A DNA stretch of 63,950 bases, counting the filler, from Candidatus Rokuibacteriota bacterium (GTDB lineage: Bacteria; JAUVQV01; DATDCY01), in NCBI GenBank assembly GCA_031406795.1. It is 9 parts of 9 records of this genome, joined end to end, with 100 filler letters (N's around TTAATTAATTAA, not from the genome) between each part and the next. Parts side by side here need not be neighbours in the genome. Positions count along the whole stretch, not along the records: positions 1 to 17,482 come from JANOHV010000203.1; 8 more parts are not named here. One strand, 5' to 3'. Shown here piece after piece: positions 201-17,482 of this stretch. Positions within the stretch are counted from its first letter, which is position 1. Each line of letters opens with the position of its first letter. The notes below the pieces were generated by a model that saw only the letters and a program-made list of their open reading frames with translations, was not told the DNA's origin and did no database searches. The translations under genes were made by a program, and so were the position numbers.

Positions 201-1178
201 ATGGGTGCGGGGGAGTCGATGGCTGCGCAGAAGCTGAAACAGGGGGTCGTGGGTGTGCTCATGGGCGGCCGCTCCGCCGAGCGCGAGGTGTCGCTGCGGA
301 CGGGGGCGGCGATTCTCGCCTCGCTTCGCCGGTGCGGACACCGGGCGGTCGGCGTCGACGCGGGGCGGGATCTGCCGCAGGTGCTGGCCCGCCGGAGAGT
401 CAGCGTGGCGTTCCTCGCGCTGCACGGGCGCGGCGGCGAGGACGGCACGGTTCAGGGACTGCTCGAGTGCCTGGGCATCCCCTACACCGGGTCCGGCGTG
501 CTCGCGAGCGCGTTGGCGATGGACAAGAAACAGACCAAGTGGATTTTCCGTGCGCACGCTCTGCCGACTCCGGACTTCGAGGTCCTGGCCGTCGGCACGC
601 GGAGGGGCTGGCCGCTCGATCGTCTCGAACCCCCGGTCGTGGTCAAGCCGGTCTGCGAAGGCTCGACGGTCGGCATGAGTGTCGTGCGCACGCGCGGCGC
701 GCTGGCGAGGGCTCTGGCGACGGCATTTCGCTACGATCCGGAAGTGCTCGTCGAGGTGTTCGTTCCCGGGCGCGATCTGACCGTCGGGGTCCTCGGCGAC
801 CGGGCCCTCGGCGTGGTCGAGATGCGGCCGCGCGGCGGCTTCTACAGTTATCGGGCCAAGTACACCTCCGGGGCCACGGAGTACCTCGTGCCCGCCCCCC
901 TCACGGCCCGGCAGACGGCGCGAACGCAGAAACTGGCGCTGGCCGCTCACCGTGCGCTCGGCTGCCGCGGTGCAAGCCGGGTCGACTTCCGTCTCGACGA
1001 GCGCGGGCGTCTCCAACTGCTGGAAGTCAACACGATCCCGGGGATGACCGCGACGAGCCTTCTGCCCAAGTCGGCCGCCGAAGCCGGGATCGGGTTCGAC
1101 GAACTCGTCACGCGCATCCTGGCCGACGCGCGGCTGGACGCGGCACCGCGGTGTCCCGATCGTGGAGCGGCGCGGTGA
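201..1178 (+). CDS. ddl: D-alanine--D-alanine ligase
   Basis: GG.SAEREVSL.TG, LHG.GGEDG.VQG, LEVNTIPGMT motifs; alternative start at 219. Confidence 0.95.
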   Translation: MGAGESMAAQKLKQGVVGVLMGGRSAEREVSLRTGAAILASLRRCGHRAVGVDAGRDLPQVLARRRVSVAFLALHGRGGEDGTVQGLLECLGIPYTGSGVLASALAMDKKQTKWIFRAHALPTPDFEVLAVGTRRGWPLDRLEPPVVVKPVCEGSTVGMSVVRTRGALARALATAFRYDPEVLVEVFVPGRDLTVGVLGDRALGVVEMRPRGGFYSYRAKYTSGATEYLVPAPLTARQTARTQKLALAAHRALGCRGASRVDFRLDERGRLQLLEVNTIPGMTATSLLPKSAAEAGIGFDELVTRILADARLDAAPRCPDRGAAR

Positions 1179-7095: not shown

Positions 7096-7509
7096 ATGAA
7101 GATTGAGTACCGGAAGATCGAAGAGGCCTATGAATTCGTCAGCGCGGGAGAACTGTTCGCACATAGCGCGCTGCTGGATACGCAGACCGGCGAAGTGCTC
7201 CTGCAGACCGAGTCGGGCGAACTGGACGAGTTCCCGGCGGACATCGACCAGGACCGCTATCGGCCGCTCCCGACCCGGAGCGAGCTGCAGCTGGGGAGGC
7301 GGCTCGTCCTGGCGTTCGTCGCGGCCCATCTGCCGGATGCCCTCGATGAGGTCCGGGACATGTTCGGCCGCAAAGGCGCCTACTCCCGCTTCAAGGAGTT
7401 GCTGGCGCTCCACAACATGTTCGATCTCTGGTACGAATACGAGGGGAGAGAGACAGAAAGAGTCTTGCGGGAGTGGTGCGCGGGTGCGGGCATCACGCTC
7501 GCTGGTTGA
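7096..7509 (+). CDS. UPF0158-like protein
   Basis: LD..TGE, F.RKGAYSRFK.LL, W..YE pattern. Confidence 0.65.
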   Translation: MKIEYRKIEEAYEFVSAGELFAHSALLDTQTGEVLLQTESGELDEFPADIDQDRYRPLPTRSELQLGRRLVLAFVAAHLPDALDEVRDMFGRKGAYSRFKELLALHNMFDLWYEYEGRETERVLREWCAGAGITLAG

Positions 7510-7634
7510 CAGATCCGCATTTCACGACTCTTCTTCCGCAGCAGAGAAAAATTAGAGCCGGCCATGTTTGCGCCGTGGTGAGGCGCAGGTCTGCTCGCCG
7601 GTTGCCCCTGCGGCCGGTTGGAGTTCACGCGCGC

Positions 7635-8018
7635 TCACTGTGCGGAAGGATCAGCCTGCATGATCCCGAAAATGTTTCCTTCGGTGTCCTTGAGATAGGC
7701 CAGCCATCCGATCCCGGGAATTGGCATCTTTGGCAGTGCGATAGTTGCGCCACTCTCCCGTGCGGGCTTCATGATCTGATCGAGATTACCGACTTCGATC
7801 GTGCAAACATACGCGGTGACCGCTTGACCATCGAGGGGCCCCCTTCGAACAACGAGACCGCCATTAATTCCCGGCTCGTCCTTTGACCCGGTTTCAATCG
7901 TCCAATAATCGACGGGACCGTCCCATTTGGTGAATTTCCAACCGAACAGGCTTGAGTAGAATTTCTGTGCTCGCTGAACATCCTCGGCATGGATTTCGAA
8001 GTGCACGACTCTGTTCAT
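7635..8018 (-). CDS. VOC/glyoxalase family protein (cassette)
   Basis: VVHFEI.A.D..RA.KFY..LFGW, GINGG, IPG.GW.AY.KDTEGN.FGI. Confidence 0.9.
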   Translation of the reverse strand: MNRVVHFEIHAEDVQRAQKFYSSLFGWKFTKWDGPVDYWTIETGSKDEPGINGGLVVRRGPLDGQAVTAYVCTIEVGNLDQIMKPARESGATIALPKMPIPGIGWLAYLKDTEGNIFGIMQADPSAQ

Positions 8019-8032
8019 GATTCTCTCCTTCT

Positions 8033-8052
8033 GCTACAACGCCTGGTTCGCT
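8033..8052 (-). repeat. truncated attC (left arm only)
   Basis: GCGAAC-CAGGC-GTTGTAGC runs directly into the leader of the next cassette. Confidence 0.7.
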
Positions 8053-8657
8053 GGCCTGTCGTCCTTGTGAAGGCTGACTTTAAGATCCTTGAGCAGTCCA
8101 TCATGGATGTCGTAGACCCACCCGTGCAGAAATAGTTTCTGACCTCGCCGCCAGGCATCCTGAACGGTGGTAGTGTTCGCAACGTTCGTCACCTGCTCCT
8201 TGATATTGAACTCGCATAGTCGACGAAGCAGGGCCGGCTTGTTTTTCACCCGCTTCAACTGGTCGTGGTGGCGCTGGTACACGTCTCGCACGTGACGTAG
8301 CCAATTGTCAATAAGCCCGTGGCGCTGATCTGCGACTGCCGCCTCGATTCCACCACATCCATAGTGACCGCAAACGATTATGTGCTCAACCCTGAGTATT
8401 TCAACGGCGTATTGAAGCACGGAAAGGCAATTGATGTCCGTGTGGATGACAAGATTCGCCACATTCCGATGGACGAAGATTTCGCCGGGCAGAAGCCCGA
8501 CTATCTCGTTTGCCGGGACGCGGCTGTCGGCACAACCTATCCAAAGGTACCGGGGCGTCTGCTGACGAGCCAGATTCTTGAAGAAACTGCGATTGTTCCG
8601 GGTCATACGCTTGGCCCACTGACGGTTATTCTCGAATAGTTCCTTTGTCGTCTTCAT
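8034..8657 (-). CDS. can: beta-class carbonic anhydrase (cassette)
   Basis: [26 protein letters not shown] zinc ligands. Confidence 0.93.
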
Positions 8658-8667
8658 CTCTTCTTTC

Positions 8668-8790
8668 TCTGAACGTAGTGTCGAACCGCGGGCGCGCTTG
8701 CCTGTCCGCCTTCTCCTTGAACTTCTGCCTACTCTGTCACGCCAGGGCAGAAATGCAAGCGAGATCTGTCGGCTACAACGCCTTGGGCGG
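8668..8790 (-). repeat. attC site
   Basis: GCCCAA-GGCGTTGTAGCCGAC...GCAAGCGCGCCCGCGGTTCGACACTAC-GTTCAGA; R''/spacer shortened by about 3 nt. Confidence 0.82.
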
Positions 8791-8792
8791 TT

Positions 8793-9128
8793 TCAATCGA
8801 GGTCCGGCAACTCCAATGCAACACGCAAAGCGACGTTGATTTGCCCGAGGAGTCCTGGCGAAAGGGTCCCGATGTAGTTGGTTAACGCGGACTTGGGAAG
8901 GCTGACGAGCTCGTCGCAGTGGATACCGCTTTCGTGTTTCAATCCTTCGCTCACACCGACAGCGACTTGAGTTGAGAGGCCATCATGGACCGAGAAGATG
9001 GGAGCGCATATGACAGTGGAGAAACGAGATTCGATTACTGTCTGGCGACTGAGAACAACGAACACTCTGGACTTCGTTGGATCCTTAGACGATGGATTGG
9101 CAACGCGATACAGTTCACCACGCTTCAT
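8793..9128 (-). CDS. MazF/PemK family toxin (cassette)
   Basis: MKRGELY.V..P..DP.K.R.FVVLS, C.EL.SL.K. Confidence 0.88.
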
Positions 9129-9355
9129 GGAATTACCTGAAATGAAAGGACGTCCGATGCCTCTTTGTTCAGGCGATCCGCCTGGCGGTTGATGATTTCG
9201 AGGTCCTTGGCGTTCTGCCTGTCACGGATCCTCTGACTGATATAGACCCGTAGTGCGGTCTCGATGAACTCCGACCGGTTTCCTTGTGGACCAGACTGCT
9301 CGTCGATAGCCTTGAGAACGTCGCCTGAGAGAGTGATGGATGTCTTGAGCTTCAT
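9125..9355 (-). CDS. ribbon-helix-helix antitoxin (cassette)
   Basis: KTSITLS.DVL..ID......NRSEFIE.AL; overlaps the toxin start. Confidence 0.82.
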
Positions 9356-9404
9356 ACCGCAAACATACTTCCGATAGTATTACCTGTCAATCATTCTTTT
9401 CCGC

Positions 9405-9440
9405 ACCGAGTGGACCGAGGGCCGTTAACCGGACCCGGCT
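9405..9440 (-). mobile_element. group II intron domain VI remnant
   Basis: Near-identical to the 3' end of the intron at 10910-10945 (GCCGGG.CCGGTTAACGGCCCTCGG.C.ACTCGGT). Confidence 0.8.
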
Positions 9441-9444
9441 ACGC

Positions 9445-9659
9445 GTCGAAGATGCAACCTCAACCGCGGCACGCAGCCTCGATTGCAGCGATGTCGATCT
9501 TTTTCATCTGGGTTCTCTGTCGGGCTTCATTTCCATCTTCCCGCTGGTCCTCACTCACTGGGTAACGTTAGCCAATTTGCCGGGCTCAACGCCCGTTCCC
9601 ATGGCCTCGGACTTACTTGGCGCTGAAGCGTGATCGGTCAGCTACAACGCCTGGTTGCT
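9445..9659 (-). repeat. degenerate, elongated attC site
   Basis: GAGCAAC-CAGGC-GTTGTAGCTGAC left arm is intact; right arm is degenerate. Confidence 0.6.
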
Positions 9660-9922
9660 CATTCGTAATGCGTCCACATTCGAATGACCTTGACGACCTT
9701 CTCATTATCGAATACTTGATACACCAATCGGTTATGGATATTGATTCTCCGTGAGTAGGCTCCGTCCAGATCGCCAATCAACTTTTCATACGGTGGAGGA
9801 TTGATGTAGGGATTCTGTTTGAGGAGTTCAATCAATACCTCAGCCTTGGGTCTCAGACCTGATGACGATATTTTCTTTGCATCCTTTTGTGCTTGTTTCG
9901 TGAAGACGACTTGCCATTTCAC
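9659..9922 (-). CDS. Txe/YoeB family toxin (cassette)
   Basis: GTG start; PP.YEKL.GDL.GAYSRRINI..RLVY, MWTHYE. Confidence 0.92.
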   Translation of the reverse strand: MKWQVVFTKQAQKDAKKISSSGLRPKAEVLIELLKQNPYINPPPYEKLIGDLDGAYSRRINIHNRLVYQVFDNEKVVKVIRMWTHYE

Positions 9923-10167
9923 CAGCCTGGTTCCTTTGAGCACTCCTTGATAGGCGTCTTCAGCCCTTGCCTGACAGATTCCCTCAAACCGGGAACTGAC
10001 AGGAGATAAATGGTCTCTTGAATTGCTTTCCAATCGTCCTCGGAAACAAGGACGGCGTTCGCACGCTTGCCTGTGATGAGGATCGCCTCGTGGCTCGAAG
10101 AAGCGTCGTCGATTAGTCGATAGAGATTTGTTCGTGCCTTGCTTGCACTAAGAGTAGCCATGACCAT
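9919..10167 (-). CDS. Phd/YefM family antitoxin (cassette)
   Basis: A..AR.NLY.LID, AVL.SE.DW.AIQET.YL; GTACGCA operator repeats at 10194-10212. Confidence 0.9.
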   Translation of the reverse strand: MVMATLSASKARTNLYRLIDDASSSHEAILITGKRANAVLVSEDDWKAIQETIYLLSVPGLRESVRQGLKTPIKECSKEPGW

Positions 10168-10244
10168 TCCTTCCCGAAGTTGTTTCAGGAATGGTACGCA
10201 TTGTCGTACGCACTGTCAAATTGCTTTCTAGCATTCCTTTTCCA

Positions 10245-10375
10245 ACCACGTAGCGTTTAGCCGCGGCCGCGCTTGCCTGCCCGTATTGGAACATTGCAGC
10301 CAGAATTCACCTTAGCCTCAAAGGGCAGAAATGCAAGCGTGATCCGTCGGCTACAACGCCTTATAAGGGTTAGGT
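10245..10375 (-). repeat. attC site with expanded R''-L'' spacer
   Basis: ACCTAAC-CCTTATAAGGC-GTTGTAGCCGAC...GCGGCTAAACGCTAC-GT. Confidence 0.85.
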
Positions 10376-10514
10376 GCTCACTGCGACATCGTGAGCCGAA
10401 ATCAAGCCGCATGGGAACTCGCAACGAGGAGTGAAGCACCGAAAAGGCGAAATTTGAAGAGTTCGTCAGCGGCTATTTCTGGCCTTGACGTGGGGAGACC
10501 ATATAAGGGTTAGG
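10362..10514. repeat. 140-bp hairpin element between direct repeats, copy 1
   Basis: TATAAGGGTTAGG at 10362 and 10502; interior differs from copy 2 at only 3 positions; imperfect inverted repeat. Confidence 0.85.
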
Positions 10515-10519
10515 CAAGT

Positions 10520-10894
10520 TCACTTTTTTACGCACAACCGCTTCACCATCTGAGCGAGCCCGAGAAAGATTAGCACCCACACAGTATATGCGAGCGCAAT
10601 GCCCAACGGCTTCGGCCATGCGAACCATCCAGGCGCATTCATCAACCCATACTTCCACAGAATTGAGGTAAATGGGAATGTGAGGAGAAGGGCAGGAACC
10701 GCCAGAATCCAGAAATTGATTACTCCAATTAGTTCGGAGCCCTTGCCAGGAAATCCACCAGGATGAAGTGCCTGAACTGCAGAAGAGAGACAGAGAAGTA
10801 ATCCATGAAGAGCAACCGCTGCCGCGCAGAATCTGAGGACATGCACCAATCCCAGGAATGAGGGACTTGTTACTGACACAAGAACTTTCTTCAT
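10520..10894 (-). CDS. hypothetical membrane protein (cassette)
   Basis: 124-aa ORF with about 3 hydrophobic segments, bounded by attC ends. Confidence 0.7.
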   Translation of the reverse strand: MKKVLVSVTSPSFLGLVHVLRFCAAAVALHGLLLCLSSAVQALHPGGFPGKGSELIGVINFWILAVPALLLTFPFTSILWKYGLMNAPGWFAWPKPLGIALAYTVWVLIFLGLAQMVKRLCVKK

Positions 10895-10909
10895 TGTGGT
10901 TTTCTCTGC

Positions 10910-13121
10910 ACCGAGTAGGCCGAGGGCCGTTAACCGGCCCCGGCCCCTCTCAGAACCGTACGTGACAGTTTCCCGTCATACGGCTCAAGCACTTCGTAAG
11001 GGCTCTGTCGATGAAGAGAGACCCGGCAATTCCGTGAGTCCCGCATTTTCAGATCGTACAGCCGGCCTGGAGCGGATGCAACCGCGCCCAGCCGCGAGCG
11101 GCCCGAGTGCGGAAGTATTCGTCCTGGCCGTGATCGTAGGGATTTGTTTCTCCCCGGATCTTCACGTGCCGGATGATGCGTACGCTTCCGGCGCGCAGCA
11201 GATCCACGATCTTTCTTTGCCCCAAGTTTCCTTTGACGGTCGCGAAGAATTGCCATAGGGTGGTGGTCGTTGATCGGAAGTAGTGCTTCCGGGTCCACCG
11301 CTTGCCTTTGGCCGTGTGCCTTCTTCGCGCCCATCGCCAGAGTTGCCAGAAGATGCAGGAATCGACTTTGGTAAAGGCGGCCGAGGAACAGACGTGCCGG
11401 TGATAGTTCGCCCAGCCCTGGACCACGGGATTGAGCTTGCCGATCATGACTGCAGTCTGCGCTCCTCGGTGGGCTCGAATGATTTCCTTGGTCTTGGCGA
11501 CGATCGCCAGCACTGCGGTCTTGGCGGGCTGGATCAGCAGCTTGCCGCCGTACTTTCGCAGGTTCTGGCCGAGAAAATCGAACCCCTGCTCGATCGGCGT
11601 GATGCGTGTCTTCTCCTCGGAGAGGGTCAGCCCTCGTTCTCGGAGAAACGCCGCGACTGCGGGGAGAACCCTGTCCCGGAGCAGTTCTTGCGAGCCGCCC
11701 GTGATGACAAAGTCGTCCGCATAGCGGATCACGTTGACCTTGGTACGCCTCGGGACGGCCTTTCTCACTGCCGTCTCCAGGCCATCCAGAGTCATGTTCG
11801 CCAGCACGGGGGAAATGATGCCCCCTTGCGGGGTCCCGGCCAGCGTCGAGTAGAGCATGCCTTTGTCCAGGTACCCGGCCCGCAACCATTGTCCGAGAAC
11901 CTTCGCGTCCATCGGGATATGGCGCAGCAGCCAGGCGTGATTGATCTCATCGAAGCAGGAACGGATGTCCCCCTCCAGTACCCAACGCGGCGAGCACTTC
12001 TTGGCCAGACAAATGAAGCACTGTGCGATTGCGTCGGCGCAGCCGCGGTACTCCCGAAATCCGTAGGAGTTCGGGTCCCCCATCGTCTCGGCCACCGGAG
12101 TCAGCGCCAGCGCGTAGAGCGCCTGCATTGCCCGGTCTCGCATCGTTGGAATTCCCAGAGGTCGGAGTTTACCGTTCTTCTTCTCGATGTAGACCCGTCT
12201 CAGCGGCAGGGAACGATACCCGTGCCGTCTGAGCGTGTTGATCGCCTGCATCTTTTTGCGCGACGTGTTCCAAACTTTCCGGTCCACGCCCGGGGTCCTG
12301 CGGCCTTTGTTGCTCACGACTCGTTTCACCGCCAACAACTTTGCGTGATACGAGTGGGTCAGAAGCCACATCAGGGCTTTCACCTTGGCGTGTCTTCGTT
12401 CCCGAACTGCCTTTGCGATACGCACCTGCAGTCTTCTGACAGCGTGACGTACCGGACCCCAGGAAATGGCGTCCCAGTCCGTGCGGCTGTCGGAGAGCGC
12501 ACCAGTCGACCGTCTCGCGGCCACCGTCATTTGCATTCTCTCCCCCGAAGATTCCCCAGATTCTCCCGCAAAGAAGCACCAGATGGACGTCAGCGTATCC
12601 CGACGATTACCGCCGGGCCTTGGCTTCTTCCATCCTCTCTCTCCCGACCTTCGTCAGCCTGCCTTACGGTTGGCCTGCCCAATGTTGCCGGGCGAAGGAC
12701 CGGGAGTTACCACGTTCCGCTTACCTGACAACAGATCACGTAGGCCCACTCTGTCCACCGGCGGGAATGTCGTCCGCGTCGGACCACGTTAGAGAGGTCC
12801 GATCCACCTGCGCACCTTTTGGTCCAAGCCGGTCAGCCCTTCGGCTTGTTCGCTATAACAGCGGTTACGAGTGTTCACCTGGGTTGGCCCTATGACCTTA
12901 TCCTAACCCCTCACCCGGATCGGGCTTCCAGGAGGGCGTCGGCCTCGCGGCTCTTGCCCCGCATCTCGCAGGATGCTTCGGCGCATTGCGGAGAGGCTCC
13001 ATACCCGCTCGGGATGCACCCGAGCACGCATGCTCCCCTTGGATCGCGGCAACGGAATGCCGGGTTCAAGCGGCCCTCCTGCACCGTTGAACAGTCTTGT
13101 GTAAGCGACCTCGTGTCGCAA
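10910..13121 (-). mobile_element. group II intron (IIB, chloroplast-like CL1 type) inserted in attC R' box
   Basis: 5' TTGCGACACGAGGTCG; 34-nt domain V GAGCCGTATGACGGGAAACTGTCACGTACGGTTC (10953-10986); domain VI; removing it restores GTTCG|GCAG. Confidence 0.92.
11049..12536 (-). CDS. ltrA: group II intron reverse transcriptase/maturase, no HNH endonuclease domain
   Basis: RVT_N (V.RLQ.RIAKA), TPGVD, RPLGIPT..DRA.Q, GTPQGG.ISP.LAN, RYADD, domain X GWANY; ends after the R...I.G..NPYD motif. Confidence 0.95.
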   Translation of the reverse strand: MQMTVAARRSTGALSDSRTDWDAISWGPVRHAVRRLQVRIAKAVRERRHAKVKALMWLLTHSYHAKLLAVKRVVSNKGRRTPGVDRKVWNTSRKKMQAINTLRRHGYRSLPLRRVYIEKKNGKLRPLGIPTMRDRAMQALYALALTPVAETMGDPNSYGFREYRGCADAIAQCFICLAKKCSPRWVLEGDIRSCFDEINHAWLLRHIPMDAKVLGQWLRAGYLDKGMLYSTLAGTPQGGIISPVLANMTLDGLETAVRKAVPRRTKVNVIRYADDFVITGGSQELLRDRVLPAVAAFLRERGLTLSEEKTRITPIEQGFDFLGQNLRKYGGKLLIQPAKTAVLAIVAKTKEIIRAHRGAQTAVMIGKLNPVVQGWANYHRHVCSSAAFTKVDSCIFWQLWRWARRRHTAKGKRWTRKHYFRSTTTTLWQFFATVKGNLGQRKIVDLLRAGSVRIIRHVKIRGETNPYDHGQDEYFRTRAARGWARLHPLQAGCTI

Positions 13122-13253
13122 CGAACGTAGCGTTTAGCCGCGGGCGCGCTTGCCGGCCCGTATCGGCACGTTACAATTCTCCTGAGCATCAGCCTCAAAG
13201 GGCCGAAATGCAAGCGTGATCCGTCGGCTACAACGCCTCTATAAGGGTTAGGC
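13122..13253 (-). repeat. attC site with expanded spacer
   Basis: GCCTAAC-CCTTATAGAGGC-GTTGTAGCCGAC...GCGGCTAAACGCTAC-GTTCG. Confidence 0.88.
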
Positions 13254-13265
13254 AGTCATCGCTTT

Positions 13266-13628
13266 TCACTGTTCAATTCCCTTCGTATTGGATTCCTGCC
13301 ATGGCCAGCTGCCCTCAATTTCAAGATGCAGTGTGAATGCCAAGAATGTACGCATCACAATGATTAGCGCGAGAACCGCAACGTTTGTTAACGTGTCAGA
13401 CACAATAACGGTTCGGATAATATCTCCGGCGATCAGAAACTCTAAACCAAGGATGATTGATCGTGCTATGTCCCGGCGATAACTCCGATATGCACTCCCG
13501 CTGTATGTAACCTTCATCCGCTTGATGGCACGTATTGTTGCTAGCACGAAACCAGCAACAATCACTAAGACTCCCGCTGCTTCAATTGCATAGCTGACGG
13601 TCCCAATGAAGTCTTTGAATTGGCTCAT
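13266..13628 (-). CDS. DUF1622 membrane protein (cassette)
   Basis: R.I.LGLEFL.AGDII.TV, IIV.RTFL...L..E. Confidence 0.88.
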   Translation of the reverse strand: MSQFKDFIGTVSYAIEAAGVLVIVAGFVLATIRAIKRMKVTYSGSAYRSYRRDIARSIILGLEFLIAGDIIRTVIVSDTLTNVAVLALIIVMRTFLAFTLHLEIEGSWPWQESNTKGIEQ

Positions 13629-13681
13629 GCTTAATGTCCTCAGAATTACATTTGACTTAGTTCACAGTTCCTTTTGTCTTG

Positions 13682-13800
13682 GCCTAACGTAACGTTTAGC
13701 CGCAGGCGCGCTTGCCTGCCCGTATTTGCACATTACACTGTTCACTACACTCACACTCAAAGGGCAGAAATGCAAGCGTGACTGTCGGCTAGAACGTCTT
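13682..13800 (-). repeat. attC site interrupted by IS110-family element
   Basis: Same attC family with R' GTTAGGC intact; the R'' end is replaced by the IS. Confidence 0.85.
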
Positions 13801-13872
13801 GATACTCATTAAGGCCTCCGGGGAAGCGCCACGTCGGTACCATTGGTGAAACCACCGGAGAGGAGGCCTTGA

Positions 13873-15280
13873 ATGAAGTTCTACACGGGACAGCACAAGT
13901 TCTACTGCGGTGTCGATCTGCACGCCCGCACCATGTTTTTCTGTGTCCTTGACGAGCGAGGATACCCGCTTCTGGAGAGGAACATCAAGACCGAACCGGA
14001 ACTCCTTCTCAAGACTATCGCGCCGTATCGAGAAAGCCTGGTCGTCGGCGTCGAGTGCATGTTCACCTGGTACTGGCTCGCCGACCTGTGCTCCCGGGAG
14101 AAAATCCCTTTCATCCTCGGGCACGTGCCACTGCCGGTTATCAGCGGACCCACTTTGTCGGTTTCGGTGGACCCACCCTGAAATTGCGGAATTCCGCATC
14201 AGCGGCAGTAAAATTCCGGTGAGTGGGTCCGTCGGGCGGGCATACGATTAATGGGTATCGACAACCCCGGGACCTATAAAGACAGCCAGCCCCGACTTCT
14301 ACCTCAGTTTGTTGCCACGTGGCAACAAATCCATACTCCATCTCGTGGAGGTGATACCCGTCGAACCCTTTTAGCAGTTCGGTGATGGATGTCAAGCCAC
14401 TTCCTCCTCGCACCTTGCGGGCAGCCACAAAGTCATTCGCAGGGTTGACACGCCAGATACCCGCGTCATATATGGACCGGAAGACGGACGTCCCCTTTGC
14501 CCTTCCTGAGGACGTTCAATCAGTCGAATTGTCCATCTGGGTCCACACGTCGAAATCCATAGCAGCTCAGTTGACAGGTCATCAGGAGCAGCTTTCGAGC
14601 AGTGGCAGGTTCACTCTTGACCACCAGTATCAGCACGGCGTGGTATTTTCCGCTTACCCCATTTCCGGCCAGGTGGGTCCGACTACCGGCAGGGGGTGGG
14701 TCCACCTTTCACCGGCAGTAGCACGGGCACGCGCTTTACATGAAGGCGATCCACGGCGGCAAGGCCAAGAACGACCGGATCGACGCCAACAAGATCGCCG
14801 TGCTGCTGCGCGGCGGTATGTTCCCCGTGGCTTACGTCTATCCACCAAAAATGCGCTCGACCCGCGACCTGCTGCGAAGACGCATGTTCCTCAACCGAAA
14901 ACGATCCGCGCTGATCACGCACATCAAATGTACGTTCGCTCAGTACAACCTGCCGGAACCCAAGCAAAACGTATTCCGCGTTTCTCAACGCGAAGGGGTC
15001 GCCGAGCAGTTTGCGGACCCTGGCGCCAGCCGCAACGTCCAACTCGACCTGGATCTGCTCAACTTCTACGATCAGACGCTCACCAAGCTCGAACAGGAAC
15101 TGACCGTCATCGCTAAGGACCACGACCCCGACTCCTATTTCCGCCTGCGCACGGTACCGGGCATCGGAAAGATTCTCAGTCTGGTCATTCTCTATGAGAT
15201 CCACGACATCAACCGCTTCCCCTCGGTGCAGGATTTCGCGTCGTATTGCCGGCTGGTCAAGCCGGCCAAGGAGTCCGGCG
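13873..15280 (+). pseudogene. IS110 family transposase, split by an insertion and C-terminally truncated
   Basis: YCGVDLH, VGVEC, FILGH|ALYMKAIHGGKAKNDRIDA, TVPGIG, FASYCRLV...ES; homology is lost after that. Confidence 0.88.
14126..14723. mobile_element. 598-bp IS21-like non-autonomous element
   Basis: TG..CA ends; ~28-bp imperfect TIRs (TGCCACTGCCGGT / ACCGGCAGTAGCA); internal GGACCCAC repeats; 8-bp TSD CGGGCACG at 14118 and 14724. Confidence 0.85.
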
Positions 15281-15521
15281 GCTGGCTTGCTCCGGCACCA
15301 CCTGCCTTGATTGGAAGCCCGGGCACGCGCTGCAATTATCCTCCCTCGCTTCGGATTGCGACTATTCCCGTGGCGCCCCTCACCCGAACCTGGCTCTAAC
15401 TGGAAGGCTCCGTAAGGAGTTCATCCATTACCTTGAATAGGACGGTACGAGGGCCCCGATGAGTTTCTAGGCCGCGGTGGCGCCGACCGCCGCCGCAGTT
15501 GCCGCCGGGCAACCGAGCCTC

Positions 15522-15675
15522 GATAAGTGTTTGGTGCTCACTGCGACATCGTTAGCCGAAATCAAGCCGCATGGGAACTCGCAACGAGGAGTGAAGCACC
15601 GAAAAGGCGAAATTTAAAGATTTCGTCAGCGGCTATTTCTGGCCTTGACGTGGGGAGACCTTATAAGGGTTCGAT
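15522..15675. repeat. 140-bp hairpin element, copy 2, within a composite attC
   Basis: ATAAGTGTTTGG (15523) and ATAAGGGTTCGA (15663) flanks, 140 bp apart. Confidence 0.85.
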
Positions 15676-15974
15676 GGCTTTGTTCGGCTCTTCCATGCCT
15701 TCGGATTGCGTTTGGCATGAAAGACTGCGAGTACCGTGATTCGCGACTCGCTTTCTACGAAGAAGACCGCATACGGGAAGCGGTGAAGGAGGGCACGTCG
15801 GACCGTCTAGAATACCTGCGGGTATTGTTGAGGACCTCGGATGATAGCCTGGAAGACGGCGTCAACCGAAAGAATGAATTGTTCCCCGAGACCATGAACC
15901 CGCTGCTCGTACCACGCATAGGCGTCCGCGAGTTCGACCTCCGCCTCTGGCCGAACAACCAGTTCATGAGGCAC
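15633..15974 (-). pseudogene. ParE/RelE family toxin with in-frame TAG (cassette)
   Basis: MPHELVVRPEAE.EL..AY.WYE....GLG..F ... YPQVF*TVRRALL.RFPY.VFF....I.VLAVFH.KRNP..W. Confidence 0.85.
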
Positions 15975-16191
15975 GGCCAGTCCGAACGCGATCCCGAACC
16001 TGTGCCCAGGGGGAACCTTCGGTTGGATTCCTGTGATATGCATCGAGACGGGCATCTAGCTCCTGCTCCTGGGCTTTGGAAAGCGCGATTGCCTCTGGCG
16101 CTTCCGCGATGCTATCCCAGATGTCCTCGACGAGCAGAATGCGTTCGGAGATGCTGAGCTTGAGAATGTCAGCCCTGCTAACAGTGCTCAT
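15964..16191 (-). CDS. putative addiction module component (antitoxin)
   Basis: LS.SERI.LVEDIWDSI, Q..ELD.RL..Y..NP..G.PW. Confidence 0.88.
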   Translation of the reverse strand: MSTVSRADILKLSISERILLVEDIWDSIAEAPEAIALSKAQEQELDARLDAYHRNPTEGSPWAQVRDRVRTGRAS

Positions 16192-16247
16192 GGCATGTCC
16201 CTCCTCACAATGGCATTCTAACGATGCCATCGGAATCTTTCAATTCC

Positions 16248-16380
16248 ATCGAACGTAGCGTTTAGCCGCGGGCGCGCTTGCCTGCCCGTATTTGCATAGT
16301 TGCCCTCGAACTCGACTCTAAACGCAAAGGGAAGAAATGCAAGCGTGACTGTCGGCTACAACGCCTTATAAGTGTTTCGT
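16248..16380 (-). repeat. attC site with expanded spacer
   Basis: ACGAAAC-ACTTATAAGGC-GTTGTAGCCGAC...GCGGCTAAACGCTAC-GTTCGAT. Confidence 0.88.
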
Positions 16381-16397
16381 TTGTCTGGTTTAGGTCT

Positions 16398-16709
16398 TCA
16401 GTCCTGTGATTCGACTTCATCTTGCGGTGTGATTTCATTGGCGTCAAAAACCTGAGACTGGAGAATCTGCCTCTTTGGGTCTTTGATGAAGAGCATCATT
16501 CCGCCGGCAGCGGTGAGCTTCTTGTATTGCCGCAATGTCTTGGCACGAGTCTTTTCCGAAAGTGAATTGATGTAATCCATTGCGGGATACGCGTATACCC
16601 TTCGTTCCTCCACATCGCATTCGATAATTGGATGGCGATCTCCGAATTCTTGCCAGGCTTGAATTGTTGTGGACCAGTACTCCGCAATGTCGTTTGAGTA
16701 GTCCTTCAT
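16398..16709 (-). CDS. hypothetical protein (cassette)
   Basis: 103-aa ORF with RBS directly after R' GTTCGGC. Confidence 0.7.
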   Translation of the reverse strand: MKDYSNDIAEYWSTTIQAWQEFGDRHPIIECDVEERRVYAYPAMDYINSLSEKTRAKTLRQYKKLTAAGGMMLFIKDPKRQILQSQVFDANEITPQDEVESQD

Positions 16710-16720
16710 CTTCTCTTTCT

Positions 16721-16847
16721 GCCGAACGTTGCGTTTAGCTGCCGGCGCGCTTGCGGGCGCCTTGGAACGTGCCTTCGCCTCTGCTCATTGAACGGTAGCC
16801 CTCTTGCAAGCGTGACGGTCGGCTACAACGCCTTATAAGGGTTGGGA
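16721..16847 (-). repeat. attC site with expanded spacer
   Basis: TCCCAAC-CCTTATAAGGC-GTTGTAGCCGAC...GCAGCTAAACGCAAC-GTTCGGC. Confidence 0.88.
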
Positions 16848-17230
16848 GCTTTCTCTGTCATTAGTGATTTGAATTGTCTCTTCATCGTGTAGGTGTTGAC
16901 TAGAACCGCACCAAGAAGCACAAAGGAAAGCGCTACTTCACCTGATAAAGACGACATGGCTTTAGACCATCCCTCTTGTGCTTGCTTAGCCATTTCGATA
17001 CTAATTGACCGGTACAATCGTTCATTGTCAGTGTTCGGAGTGAAGGCCTCCGCCCGAGTACGGATGCCTGCGTAGGAAGTCTTGACCTTAGGAAGGACGA
17101 CGATCGTGCTGTATGCCTCGAATGCCACGCCACAGACAATGAAGGCAATTCCAAGGAAGAGCAATCGCGCGTTCTTTCTGTGAAATGCCGGATCATGGAG
17201 TTGCTTGCTCAATCTCAATGCGCCATTCAT
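16823..17230 (-). CDS. hypothetical two-TM membrane protein (cassette)
   Basis: 135 aa with two hydrophobic helices; stop codon lies inside attC L''. Confidence 0.68.
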   Translation of the reverse strand: MNGALRLSKQLHDPAFHRKNARLLFLGIAFIVCGVAFEAYSTIVVLPKVKTSYAGIRTRAEAFTPNTDNERLYRSISIEMAKQAQEGWSKAMSSLSGEVALSFVLLGAVLVNTYTMKRQFKSLMTEKAPNPYKAL

Positions 17231-17238
17231 CTTTGCTC

Positions 17239-17482
17239 ACCGGGTAGCCGGGGGGCGTTGCCGCCCCCAAGCCCCCTCAGAACCGTACTTGAGAGTTTCC
17301 CCTCATACGGCACAAGCACTTCATAAGCCTCCTTCGTAGGAAGTAGTATCCGTGTCGGGCCATGTTGGAGAGGCCCGAACCACCCGCTTACCTTTTGGTC
17401 GACGCCTGTCAGCCCTATTTGGCGGAGTCGCTTTAACGGCGGTTGCAAGTGTTTACCTTAAGTTGGCCATATGATCTTATCC
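17239..17482 (-). mobile_element. ORF-less, internally deleted group II intron derivative (5' part cut by contig end)
   Basis: 17350-17482 is homologous to 12775-12903 (domain I) and is fused almost directly to domains V-VI. Confidence 0.85.

What the first reader, a model, noticed from the sequence alone, without database searches (positions are those of the whole stretch)
10362..10514. 140-bp ORF-less hairpin element nested in attC between duplicated R''-CCTTAT motifs (two copies)
Seen: 10373-10500 and 15533-15660 differ at only 3 positions, follow unrelated cassette genes, and sit in front of different attC bodies. On the minus strand each reads AAC-CCTTATA-[GGTCTCCCCACGTCAAGGCCAGAAATAGCCGC...GCGGCTTGATTTCGGCT..CGATGTCGCAGTGAGCACC]-(T/A)AAC(C/A)CTTAT. 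That is a long bulged inverted repeat with exact 140-bp direct-repeat spacing, and it regenerates an R''-like box at its end. It does not resemble the resident attC family, the intron or the IS ends. Inference: a non-autonomous, site-specific attC parasite, or the folded ssDNA substrate of a second recombinase acting on the array.
Basis: partly seen in the sequence, partly recalled or inferred. Interest (0 to 1): 0.8.

Follow-up and report, generated by a model that had tools for sequence, protein, structure and literature searches.

The report
Small insertion element inside integron attC sites
Two near-identical 140-base non-coding inserts sit at exactly the same spot inside two recombination sites of an integron gene-cassette array, and matching cassettes in other bacteria lack them, so this looks like a new small parasite of integron sites whose way of moving is still unknown.

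Summary
Cores 10373-10500 and 15533-15660 differ at 3 of 128 bases and lie on the cassette (minus) strand between the R'' and L'' boxes of two attC sites.

One detail is wrong. Copy B does not precede a different attC. It precedes a resident-type attC that is split by an IS110-family element.

New evidence:
- Orthologous cassettes in two other MAGs carry the ordinary spacer. Both window copies are therefore clean insertions of 146 and 147 bp at AACC|AGGC.
- A 6-nt version (CTTATA) at the same bond occurs in 3 more attCs of this array, in 17 metagenome contigs and in one further MAG. One orthologous pair differs by exactly this 6-bp indel.
- The insert is not an attC by a covariance model of the family. 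It matches no Rfam family, no conserved ORF, and no IS or intron end.
- One diverged partial relative (L059) and one marginal relative (L076) both lie at array ends. None of 19 genomes with this attC family holds a significant copy.

Best reading (0.45): a non-autonomous, site-specific element that recombines through the shared R''+CCTTATA repeat with an enzyme supplied in trans. Movement and the enzyme are inferred, not shown.

The parts
10362..10507 (-). Copy A: the full 146-bp insertion relative to the orthologous empty attC (between AACC and AGGC)
   Evidence: Alignment with the orthologous cassette of G011 (L009) shows one clean 146-column gap at AACC|AGGC.
10373..10500 (-). Copy A: 128-nt conserved core
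   Evidence: 3 differences from copy B. Model R1 scores 119.9 bits, but R1 was built from this copy, so that score is not independent.
15521..15667 (-). Copy B: the full 147-bp insertion relative to the orthologous empty attC
   Evidence: The ortholog in G001 (L085) reads ...CCATCGAACC|AGGCGTTGTAGCC. The window has the insert between these two halves (bases counted).
15533..15660 (-). Copy B: 128-nt conserved core
   Evidence: Logan contigs of runs X2 and X3 cover it; the X2 record spans 15376-16278 and so bridges both junctions.
10499..10514 (-). Copy A upstream direct repeat: the cassette's own R'' box plus CCTTATATGG
   Evidence: 16-nt repeat, 15 of 16 identical, spacing 140.
10359..10374 (-). 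Copy A downstream direct repeat: the R''-like box supplied by the insert plus CCTTATAAGG of the attC spacer
10245..10369 (-). Resident attC downstream of copy A (long CTTATA spacer)
   Evidence: attC-family model R2, 98.7 bits, E 6e-27.
13682..13807 (-). Resident-type attC that belongs with copy B. Its R''/spacer part is separated from it by the IS.
   Evidence: R2, 92.7 bits. Its stems are the same as in the G001 ortholog.
13796..15516 (+). IS110-family element inserted between the spacer (..CGAGGC) and L'' (GTTCTAGCC). It is itself interrupted by an insert of about 600 bp and its 3' part is decayed. It is not part of the 140-bp element.
   Evidence: Pfam Transposase_20 and DEDD_Tnp_IS110. 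Inverted repeats 14118-14153 / 14696-14731. Ends read.
16721..16841 (-). attC with the 6-nt CTTATA spacer only (no insert)
16248..16374 (-). attC with the 6-nt variant (ACTTATAAGGC), no insert
13120..13253 (-). attC with a 7-nt variant (CCTTATAGAGGC), no insert. A group II intron follows it.
10520..10894 (-). Cassette gene upstream of copy A (124 aa, no Pfam family)
   Evidence: Ortholog at 69% aa identity in G011.
15964..16230 (-). Antitoxin-type gene of the cassette upstream of copy B
   Evidence: Pfam Unstab_antitox. Ortholog at 90% aa identity in G001.

Best explanation
It is a roughly 140-bp, non-coding, non-autonomous insertion element. It lives in the spacer between the R'' and L'' boxes of one family of integron attC sites, in Rokubacteria/Methylomirabilota-type chromosomal arrays. 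Both copies are clean insertions of 146 and 147 bp at the same bond of the ordinary spacer (AACC|AGGC).

On the cassette strand the unit begins with CCTTATAWGG and ends with its own R''-like box (ACCWAAC). The attC downstream therefore keeps a complete 5' end, and the insert is bracketed by a 10-16-bp direct repeat (R'' + CCTTATA).

My reading has three inferred steps. (1) The unit moves as a 140-nt entity, probably a circle, by site-specific recombination inside that shared repeat, with the crossover at or next to the AAC triplet. (2) The enzyme is supplied in trans. The integron integrase acting on the R'' side is my first suspect and an unidentified recombinase my second. (3) Recombination between the flanking repeats removes the unit and leaves, or restores, the 6-nt-longer CTTATA spacer seen in many attCs.

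Shown here: the insertion state, its exact position, the boundaries of the conserved unit, the absence of coding and of attC character, and the existence of the 6-nt state in orthologous cassettes. Inferred: mobility as a unit, the circle, the enzyme, and the direction of the link between the insert and the 6-nt variant.
For: (1) Two empty-site comparisons. The cassette upstream of copy A has an ortholog in G011 with ...GCCTAACC|AGGCGTTGTAGCC and one 146-column gap. The cassette upstream of copy B has an ortholog in G001 with ...ATCGAACC|AGGCGTTGTAGCC.
(2) The two copies are 98% identical. The genes upstream are unrelated, and the loops of the attCs downstream differ. So the unit was placed independently of both neighbours.
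(3) The shared sequence available for copying is only the 10-16-nt repeat. I recall that this is far below what general homologous recombination needs, which favours a site-specific enzyme.
(4) Identity between the copies runs on the upstream side through AACCCTTATA(W)GG. It stops on the downstream side right after GAGCACC(W)AAC, where the two sites differ (CCTTATAAGGC against ACTTATCGAGGC). This fits a crossover at the AAC.
(5) The 6-nt CTTATA state sits at the identical bond. One orthologous pair, G001 L010 against L072, differs by exactly this indel. In the window 5 of 8 attC junctions carry the CTTATA signature: 4 are listed as long spacers in the tally, and the fifth is the IS-split attC, whose spacer part I read. 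Among the junctions that the scripts list in L001-L024, only 1 is long.
(6) A diverged relative of the core lies in another array: L059, 73.6% over 72 nt, 48.3 bits, against 200 shuffles with mean 26.0, sd 2.1 and maximum 36.8.
(7) The attC family belongs to real integrons. An integron integrase (TIGR02249, 295.7 bits, cut-off 265) lies beside four such attCs in G001.
Against: Only two full copies are known. None of the 19 genomes that carry this attC family has a significant match; the best is E 0.066. Exact-word scans of genome, metagenome and viral collections and blastn against the plasmid collection found nothing.

No autonomous partner was found. No crisp terminal inverted repeats exist, and the fold is no better than shuffles.

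The flanking repeat of copy B is degenerate.

If recombination is conservative, the target must already hold CTTATA, yet both orthologous empty sites are of the ordinary type. Either a 6-nt intermediate existed in each case, or the insertion creates both CTTATA copies by a mechanism I cannot name.

The integron integrase needs a folded R box, and I see no GTT partner for the element's AAC on the same strand.

The 6-nt variant occurs in 17 metagenome contigs, of which only 1 holds element-like sequence. It may therefore be independent of the element.
Confidence: 0.45

Rival explanations
1. It is not an element in its own right. A stray piece of DNA, for example the tail of a lost cassette, was once trapped in an attC spacer. 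It was then copied into a second attC by recombination, repair or template switching between the very similar attC 5' ends. The 6-nt CTTATA spacer is a separate attC variant that merely provides the short homology.
For: There are only 2 copies. None is in the 19 related genomes. The left boundary of the unit coincides with the R'' box, where homology between cassettes ends. attC loops are shuffled relative to cassette genes: the G001 ortholog of the copy-B cassette carries the loop of another window attC, so recombination within attCs does occur here. The two possible fossils match different halves of the unit, L059 the right part and L076 the left part, as if the unit were a composite.
Against: Homology on each side is only 10-16 nt. 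The sequence just downstream of the unit was not co-converted, since the two sites differ there. The same end points were reached twice behind unrelated genes. The unit carries its own R''-like box, which keeps the attC intact; a random fragment would not be expected to do that.
Confidence: 0.25
2. It is an ORF-less cassette-like unit in inverted orientation, moved by the integron integrase through the 'wrong' (top) strand. On the + strand it runs from G|TTAGGT to G|TTAGGC, as a cassette would.
For: On the + strand both copies are bounded by core-site-like heptamers: GTTAGGT...GTTAGGC in A and GTTTGGT...GTTCGAT in B. The limits of conservation fit a crossover in AA|C. The enzyme would be at hand, since an integron integrase lies next to this attC family in G001.
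Against: The unit holds no attC. The family model finds 7 attCs in 7500-17482 but nothing over either copy on either strand at E up to 10 with filters off. There is no inverse-core partner for the AAC on the same strand. I recall that top-strand recombination is very inefficient.
Confidence: 0.12
3. It is a deletion derivative (a miniature IS) of an IS1111/IS110-type element that targets attC sites, mobilised by such a transposase and its guide RNA.
For: An IS110-family element sits 12 nt away in the same attC, and a like IS end lies in an attC of L066. IS1111-family members are known to target one end of attC sites, and mini-ISs made of short ends can be moved in trans (PMC11187229; passages read). 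The size fits.
Against: There is no sequence similarity to the resident IS. The family's subterminal repeats are 11-13 bp and near perfect, with extensions of 7 and 3 bp. Here the best pairing is 9 of 12 with an indel (my reading). A 7+3 register gives 138 bp, which does not restore any attC spacer seen. The direct repeat of 10-16 nt is much longer than the few bases reported for that family.
Confidence: 0.08
4. It is a functional RNA or regulatory module (a stabilising hairpin, terminator or small RNA) that belongs to the 3' end of cassettes, not a parasite.
For: It lies in the transcribed 3' end of cassettes. A partially conserved core is shared with L059. A weak terminator-like site lies at 10425-10406 on the minus strand.
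Against: No Rfam match: the two matches listed have E 5.2 and 9.1. Fold z-scores are weak. With three sequences, 3 of 28 predicted pairs show compensatory change and the covariation term is unfavourable. Orthologous cassettes do without it.
Confidence: 0.07

Closest known systems
IS1111-attC group insertion sequences (ISKpn4, ISPst6, ISPa25; IS1111/IS110 family with seekRNA/bridge RNA)
   Same: They insert site- and orientation-specifically into one end of integron attC sites and move through a circle. Short end-only derivatives can be moved in trans (PMC11187229, passages). A member of the wider family sits in the same attC here.
   Different: This unit has no transposase and no similarity to the resident IS. 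The family's end architecture is not met. It inserts 4 nt further upstream (AACC|AGGC against ..AGGC|GTT). It has a much longer flanking repeat.
Group IIC-attC introns
   Same: They are also specialised parasites of attC sites and are present in this array.
   Different: This unit has no intron domains, no reverse transcriptase, a different position in the attC, and flanking direct repeats.
MITEs and other short hairpin repeats (REPIN, ERIC, IS200/IS605-derived PATEs; names recalled)
   Same: Small size (about 130-140 nt), no ORF, imperfect end-to-end pairing, and a need for an enzyme supplied in trans.
   Different: Those families are dispersed in many copies and have clear terminal repeats or paired hairpins. 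This unit has two copies, weak pairing, and one single kind of target inside a recombination site.
ORF-less integron gene cassettes
   Same: Non-coding, lies in a cassette array, and is bounded by AAC/GTT core triplets.
   Different: It has no attC of its own. It lies inside another cassette's attC, not between two attCs.
Small integrative elements that recombine through an identity segment shared by element and target (attP x attB logic of tyrosine recombinases)
   Same: The integrated form is flanked by direct repeats of a segment that the element shares with its target (CCTAACCCTTATAWGG in copy A). Loss would restore a single copy.
   Different: No recombinase gene is on the element and it is far smaller than known integrative elements. 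The ordinary, ancestral-looking target lacks 6 nt of the shared segment.

Membership tests
integron attC site | Scores with a covariance model of the resident attC family (R''/R' and L''/L' stems) | tested here: not met
   Model R2 (31 attCs, 20 base pairs) finds 7 attCs on the minus strand of 7500-17482. It finds nothing over 10373-10500 or 15533-15660 on either strand at E up to 10, filters off. The model covers this family only; a general attC model was not available.
integron attC site | Inverse core (..AAC) paired with a core (GTT..) on the same strand | tested here: not met
   Both ends carry AAC in the same orientation, so they are direct and not inverted. The consensus motifs are recalled.
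integron gene cassette (ORF-less) | Bounded by two core-site crossover points | tested here: met
   On the + strand: G|TTAGGT ... G|TTAGGC in A and G|TTTGGT ... G|TTCGAT in B.
integron gene cassette (ORF-less) | Carries its own attC at its 3' end | tested here: not met
   Local alignment to 7 resident attCs is significant only over the R''+CCTTATA part.
MITE | Terminal inverted repeats | tested here: inconclusive
   No gapless terminal repeat was found. By eye, GGTCTCCCCACG pairs with the reverse complement of CGCAGTGAGCACC at 9 of 12 with one indel. Folds pair the ends, but z is -1.05 to -1.92.
MITE | Target-site duplication | tested here: inconclusive
   Copy A has a 16-nt repeat at 15 of 16. 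Copy B has no repeat by the tool. Part of the repeat (CTTATA) is absent from the orthologous empty sites, so it is not a plain duplication of the target.
MITE | Many dispersed copies and a related autonomous element | tested here: not met
   2 copies in the window. No significant match in 19 genomes. No similarity to the IS or introns here. The window's own whole genome is not held.
IS1111-family (mini) IS | Near-perfect 11-13-bp subterminal inverted repeats with extensions of 7 bp (left) and 3 bp (right), as stated in PMC11187229 | tested here: not met
   The repeats are imperfect. A 7+3 register gives a 138-bp unit whose removal would leave a spacer 2 nt longer than any seen (my reading; the rule is).
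IS200/IS605-derived element (PATE) | Similar subterminal hairpins at both ends on one strand (recalled) | tested here: not met
   The left hairpin (CGTCA...TGACG) and the right hairpin (GCTCAC...GTGAGC) are unlike each other.
IS200/IS605-derived element (PATE) | Insertion 3' of a fixed short target word without duplication (recalled) | tested here: inconclusive
   Both copies can be read as inserted right after AAC and ending in AAC. The extra CTTATA is not explained by that.
any Rfam RNA family | Match at or near a gathering score | tested here: not met
   Only two matches in 10200-10700, at E 5.2 and 9.1, far below gathering.
protein-coding gene | Conserved open frame with a start | tested here: not met
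   One + strand frame is open across both copies (about 48 codons) but has no shared start. By my reading of the sequence, the same frame holds a stop in the L059 relative. The minus-strand frames hold stops.

The most novel reading that the evidence does not exclude
A hit-and-run parasite of integron recombination sites. A 140-nt minicircle-type element inserts beside the R'' box by using the integron integrase itself on the normally silent strand, or by an enzyme not yet known to act on attC sites. It brings its own R'' so that the cassette stays mobile. On leaving, it marks the site with a 6-nt CTTATA footprint. The footprint would then be a fossil record of its passage through a sizeable share of the attCs in some environmental arrays.
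Probability: 0.2. Interest if true: 0.75.

Novelty: new variant of a known kind. Interest (0 to 1): 0.6.

Why it matters
From what I recall and from the listings, two kinds of mobile DNA are known to specialise on attC sites: IS1111-attC insertion sequences and group IIC-attC introns. A third kind that is tiny, gene-less, lodges in the unpaired central spacer and rebuilds the R'' box would show that the folded attC is a richer niche for parasites than thought.

It would also give a natural test case for how much extra DNA the spacer tolerates. The titles and abstracts listed name the spacer as one of the features that set strand choice and efficiency.

The three-state polymorphism (empty, +6, +146) at one bond in orthologous cassettes is directly testable with an integrase assay. 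If the integrase itself moves the unit, that would be natural evidence for recombination on the R'' side.

Tried and rejected
- The window's own genome is not held, so the copy number in the source genome is unknown.
- Exact-word scans with 38- and 20-mers of the core found nothing in genome contigs, metagenome contigs or viral contigs.
- Two junction words hit 38 and 8 viral contigs. None showed extended similarity, so these are chance matches.
- blastn ('distant') against plasmids: no match.
- BLAST of the unit in 5 genomes: best E 0.16. That hit is an 18-27-nt match to a repeat of about 280 bp in G004 that I judge to be chance.
- The search at phylum level around G001 reached only 5 genomes.
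- Reads. Contigs of 4 runs were laid on 8000-17400. Among the 15 joints listed, none skips the 140 bp; 45 further joints were not shown. The runs are contigs, not reads, so neither empty alleles nor circles can be excluded. Runs X1-X3 belong to one study and may be the source of the window.
- Similarity of the unit to attCs: apart from the R''+CCTTATA part, no alignment beat shuffles. An apparent match of ATTTCTGGCCTT to the attC stem was not significant.
- G002 hit of model R1 (E 0.07): it lies in a coding region and is unrelated.
- Covariation between the unit and L059: three sequences, not informative.
- Promoter scan: nothing inside the unit.
- Ideas dropped after reading the sequence: a TA-duplicating (IS630-type) MITE, because the ordinary target has no TA; palindrome or hairpin-repair origin of CCTTATAAGG, which is not testable here; a Xer/dif-like site, because there are no matching arms.
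- Supplementary figures of PMC11187229 (target logos of the attC-targeting ISs) could not be seen. They would fix the exact insertion point of that group.
- Literature: four full-text searches listed no paper describing a small gene-less insert in the attC spacer. I read only the listings, plus passages of PMC11187229 and PMC3518468.

Full report
**What is there.** The window is a chain of MAG contigs joined by N/TTAATTAATTAA linkers, and the first contig is 1-17482. Its part from about 7600 to 17482 has lower G+C and is a cassette array read on the minus strand. The cores 10373-10500 and 15533-15660 differ at three bases: 10393, 10456 and 10461. A 19-mer of the core occurs twice against 0.05 expected. 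Sensitive blastn finds no third copy in the window or in 58 fetched loci.

**The array is an integron array.** One attC family recurs on the minus strand. It reads R'' (....AAC), a spacer, L'' (GTTGTAGCC...), a variable loop, L' (GGCTAAAC), GCTAC, then R' (GTT....). The box names and consensus motifs are recalled. The same family occurs in 24 loci of species-representative MAGs, with long arrays in a Rokubacteria MAG, G001.
- In G001 the R'' of each attC is the complement of the R' of the attC before it, as cassette biology predicts.
- An integron integrase (TIGR02249, 295.7 bits, cut-off 265) lies divergently beside four such attCs.
- A covariance model built from 31 of these attCs finds seven attCs in 7500-17482, all on the minus strand.
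- The array also holds group II introns and an IS110-family element.

**Where the element sits.** In 69 of the 110 junctions tallied by the script, the spacer between R'' and L'' is CAGGC. On the cassette strand copy A reads GCCTAAC-CCTTATATGG-[core]-ACCTAAC-CCTTATAAGGC-GTTGTAGCC. Copy B reads ATCGAAC-CCTTATAAGG-[core]-ACCAAAC-ACTTATCGAGGC, followed by an IS and then GTTCTAGCC.

The sequence after copy B is the end of an IS110-family element (Pfam Transposase_20 and DEDD_Tnp_IS110). That IS has split a resident-type attC, and the model finds the rest of that attC at 13682-13807. Both copies occupy the same position in the same kind of attC.

**Empty sites.** This is the strongest new evidence.
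- The gene upstream of copy A has an ortholog in G011 at 69% aa identity. Its DNA aligns through ...GCCTAACC and resumes at AGGCGTTGTAGCCGACGGATCACGC, with one gap of 146 columns.
- The antitoxin-type cassette upstream of copy B has an ortholog in the large G001 array at 90% aa identity. It reads ...CCATCGAACC|AGGCGTTGTAGCCGACAGTCACGC. The window has 147 extra bases there, by my count.

Both copies are thus insertions at AACC|AGGC relative to ordinary attCs, or the orthologs carry precise deletions. The genes upstream are unrelated to each other. The loops of the two downstream attCs also differ, while the cores are 98% identical. The unit was therefore placed independently of both neighbours.

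**The 6-nt state.** Three further attCs of this array have the same bond filled by only 6-7 nt: CCTTATAAGGC, ACTTATAAGGC and CCTTATAGAGGC.
- In the window 5 of 8 attC junctions carry the CTTATA signature. Four are listed as long spacers in the tally. The fifth is the IS-split attC, whose spacer part I read.
- Among the junctions that the scripts list in L001-L024, which were fetched by an attC-stem word, only 1 is long (L022).
- A scan for the long spacer found 17 metagenome contigs with it, on several attC subtypes.
- One orthologous cassette pair, G001 L010 against L072, differs by exactly the 6-bp indel CTTATA at this bond.
- My junction classifier gave 79 ordinary, 23 long and 15 other out of 117. 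This set is biased because 17 loci were fetched by the long spacer itself.

One bond in this attC family therefore exists in three states: empty, +6 and +146/147.

**What the unit is not.**
- Not an attC: no hit of the family model on either strand at E up to 10 with filters off, and both ends carry AAC in direct orientation.
- Not similar to attC bodies beyond R''+CCTTATA, nor to the IS or introns.
- No Rfam family.
- No gene. One + strand frame is open in both copies but has no shared start, and by my reading it holds a stop in the L059 relative. The other frames have stops.
- The hairpin is weak. The ends pair in most RNA-parameter folds, but the energies are ordinary: z is -1.05 to -1.92 and -2.26 / -1.64 with DNA parameters. 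No gapless terminal inverted repeat is found.

**Relatives.**
- L059, a metagenome contig with two long-spacer attCs, holds a stretch 73.6% identical over 72 nt to the right two-thirds of the core, in the same orientation. It lies between a truncated last attC and the flanking MiaB-like gene. Its 48.3 bits exceed all 200 dinucleotide shuffles (mean 26.0, sd 2.1, maximum 36.8). G001 has the same flank without this stretch.
- L076 (G006) holds a marginal match to the left third: 84% over 32 nt, 34.0 bits, which is below the largest shuffle. Model R1 gives E 0.0049 in 315 kb and 0.066 per genome. I note it because it lies in the equivalent place, between an R''-like box followed by a 10-nt palindrome and the L'' box of the last attC of an array.
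- No significant copy exists in the 19 genomes G001-G019.

**How it most likely works.** Identity between the copies runs on the upstream side through AACCCTTATA(W)GG. It stops on the downstream side right after GAGCACC(W)AAC, where the two sites differ. That is the pattern expected if a 140-nt unit, carrying an R''-like box followed by CCTTATAWGG across its joined ends, recombined with an attC at or next to the AAC. The integrated form is then flanked by the shared segment, 16 nt at 15 of 16 in copy A. Recombination between the repeats removes 140 bp and leaves the long spacer. Only 10-16 nt are shared on each side, so I favour a site-specific enzyme over general recombination. The integron integrase is the obvious suspect, because the shared segment contains its R'' box and cleavage triplet.

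The weak points are plain.
- I see no folded R box for that enzyme.
- A conservative reaction needs CTTATA in the target, yet both orthologous empty sites lack it.
- The 6-nt state is much more widespread than the unit.

I therefore cannot say whether the 6-nt state is the unit's footprint or its preferred target. I put 0.45 on 'discrete, trans-mobilised, site-specific element'.

**Rivals.**
- Passive copying of a trapped fragment between similar attCs (0.25). Few copies, a boundary at the edge of homology, and fossils that match different halves speak for it. Short homology, no co-conversion downstream, and the unit's own R'' box speak against it.
- An inverted ORF-less cassette moved by top-strand integrase action (0.12). 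The + strand core-site-like ends speak for it. The lack of an attC speaks against it.
- A mini-IS of the IS1111/IS110 kind (0.08). The family's end rule, taken from PMC11187229, is not met.
- A regulatory RNA (0.07).
- An assembly artefact is unlikely. Contigs of public runs bridge both junctions of copy B, though these runs may be the source sample.

**Comparison and novelty.** The known attC specialists are IS1111-attC elements and group IIC-attC introns. Both are present in kind in this array, and the unit fails the defining tests of both. It works like a MITE or a tiny integrative element but does not meet their membership features. Four full-text searches listed no description of a gene-less insert in the attC spacer or of the CTTATA spacer variant. 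I rate it a new variant of a known kind: small, non-autonomous, site-specific insertions.

**Limits.** Two copies. No whole genome. Contig-level read data only. Enzyme and mobility untested.

Noticed in passing
window 13796-15516 (+): An IS110-family element is inserted between the spacer and the L'' box of an attC, as the attC-targeting IS1111 group does. Its transposase gene is split by an insert of about 600 bp with 36-nt inverted ends (14118-14153 / 14696-14731), and its 3' part is out of frame. Its 3' non-coding part holds TTCTAGGCC, close to the L'' box it sits beside, which could be a guide-RNA segment. Contigs of runs X1 and X3 skip 14091-14724 with 26 to 36 other letters between the two sides, so uninterrupted relatives exist in those samples.
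   Followed up: partly
L066 about 905-945 (+): An attC in a metagenome contig is preceded by ...GAGAGTATCAAGGC. This is nearly the same as the IS end next to the window's attC at 13796-13810, so the same IS family seems to sit in the same attC position elsewhere.
   Followed up: no
window 9500-9651 (-) and L022 1700-1932 (-), L063: One attC subtype (GTTGTAGCTGACCGATCACGCTTCA|GCGCCAAGTAAGTCCGAGGCC...) is interrupted inside its stem by the 5' end of another group II intron type. L022 has the intron with its reverse transcriptase. The window seems to keep only about 110 nt of it.
   Followed up: no
window 10905-13100 (-) and 17239-17482 (-): A complete group II intron with a reverse-transcriptase/maturase gene lies right after the R' end of an attC, in the same orientation as the cassettes. 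A second intron is cut by the contig end.
   Followed up: no
window 15339-15360 and 15689-15710: A 22-nt direct repeat (82% identical, core CTTCGGATTGCG) lies on both sides of copy B. One copy is in the decayed end of the IS and the other in the 3' end of the cassette gene. Unexplained.
   Followed up: no
L076 1540-1555 (-) compared with window 10499-10508: In both places the 10 nt after the R'' box are a perfect palindrome, but of different sequence: CCCTGCAGGG against CCTTATAAGG. The outer three bases match the end of the local spacer (GGG against AGG). This could hint at a snap-back or hairpin-repair origin of the extra spacer bases. Speculative.
   Followed up: no
L025, L030, L035 (genome G004): An intergenic repeat of at least 280 bp is present in at least three copies in a Nitrospiraceae MAG. 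It shares an exact 18-mer with the element, which I take as chance. It has no Rfam match.
   Followed up: partly
L009 (G011), L085 (G001), window: Orthologous cassettes (69-90% aa identity) and one attC family are shared by MAGs labelled Rokubacteria, NC10, Nitrospirae, Deltaproteobacteria, Actinomycetes, Cyanobium and others. This means either wide cassette exchange or binning errors.
   Followed up: no
L059 2240-2300, L077 1500-1560, L136: In G001 and in contig L059 a short integron (integrase, a few cassettes) ends next to the same MiaB-like gene, so this integron has a conserved chromosomal place in that lineage. The window's array ends in a different context.
   Followed up: partly
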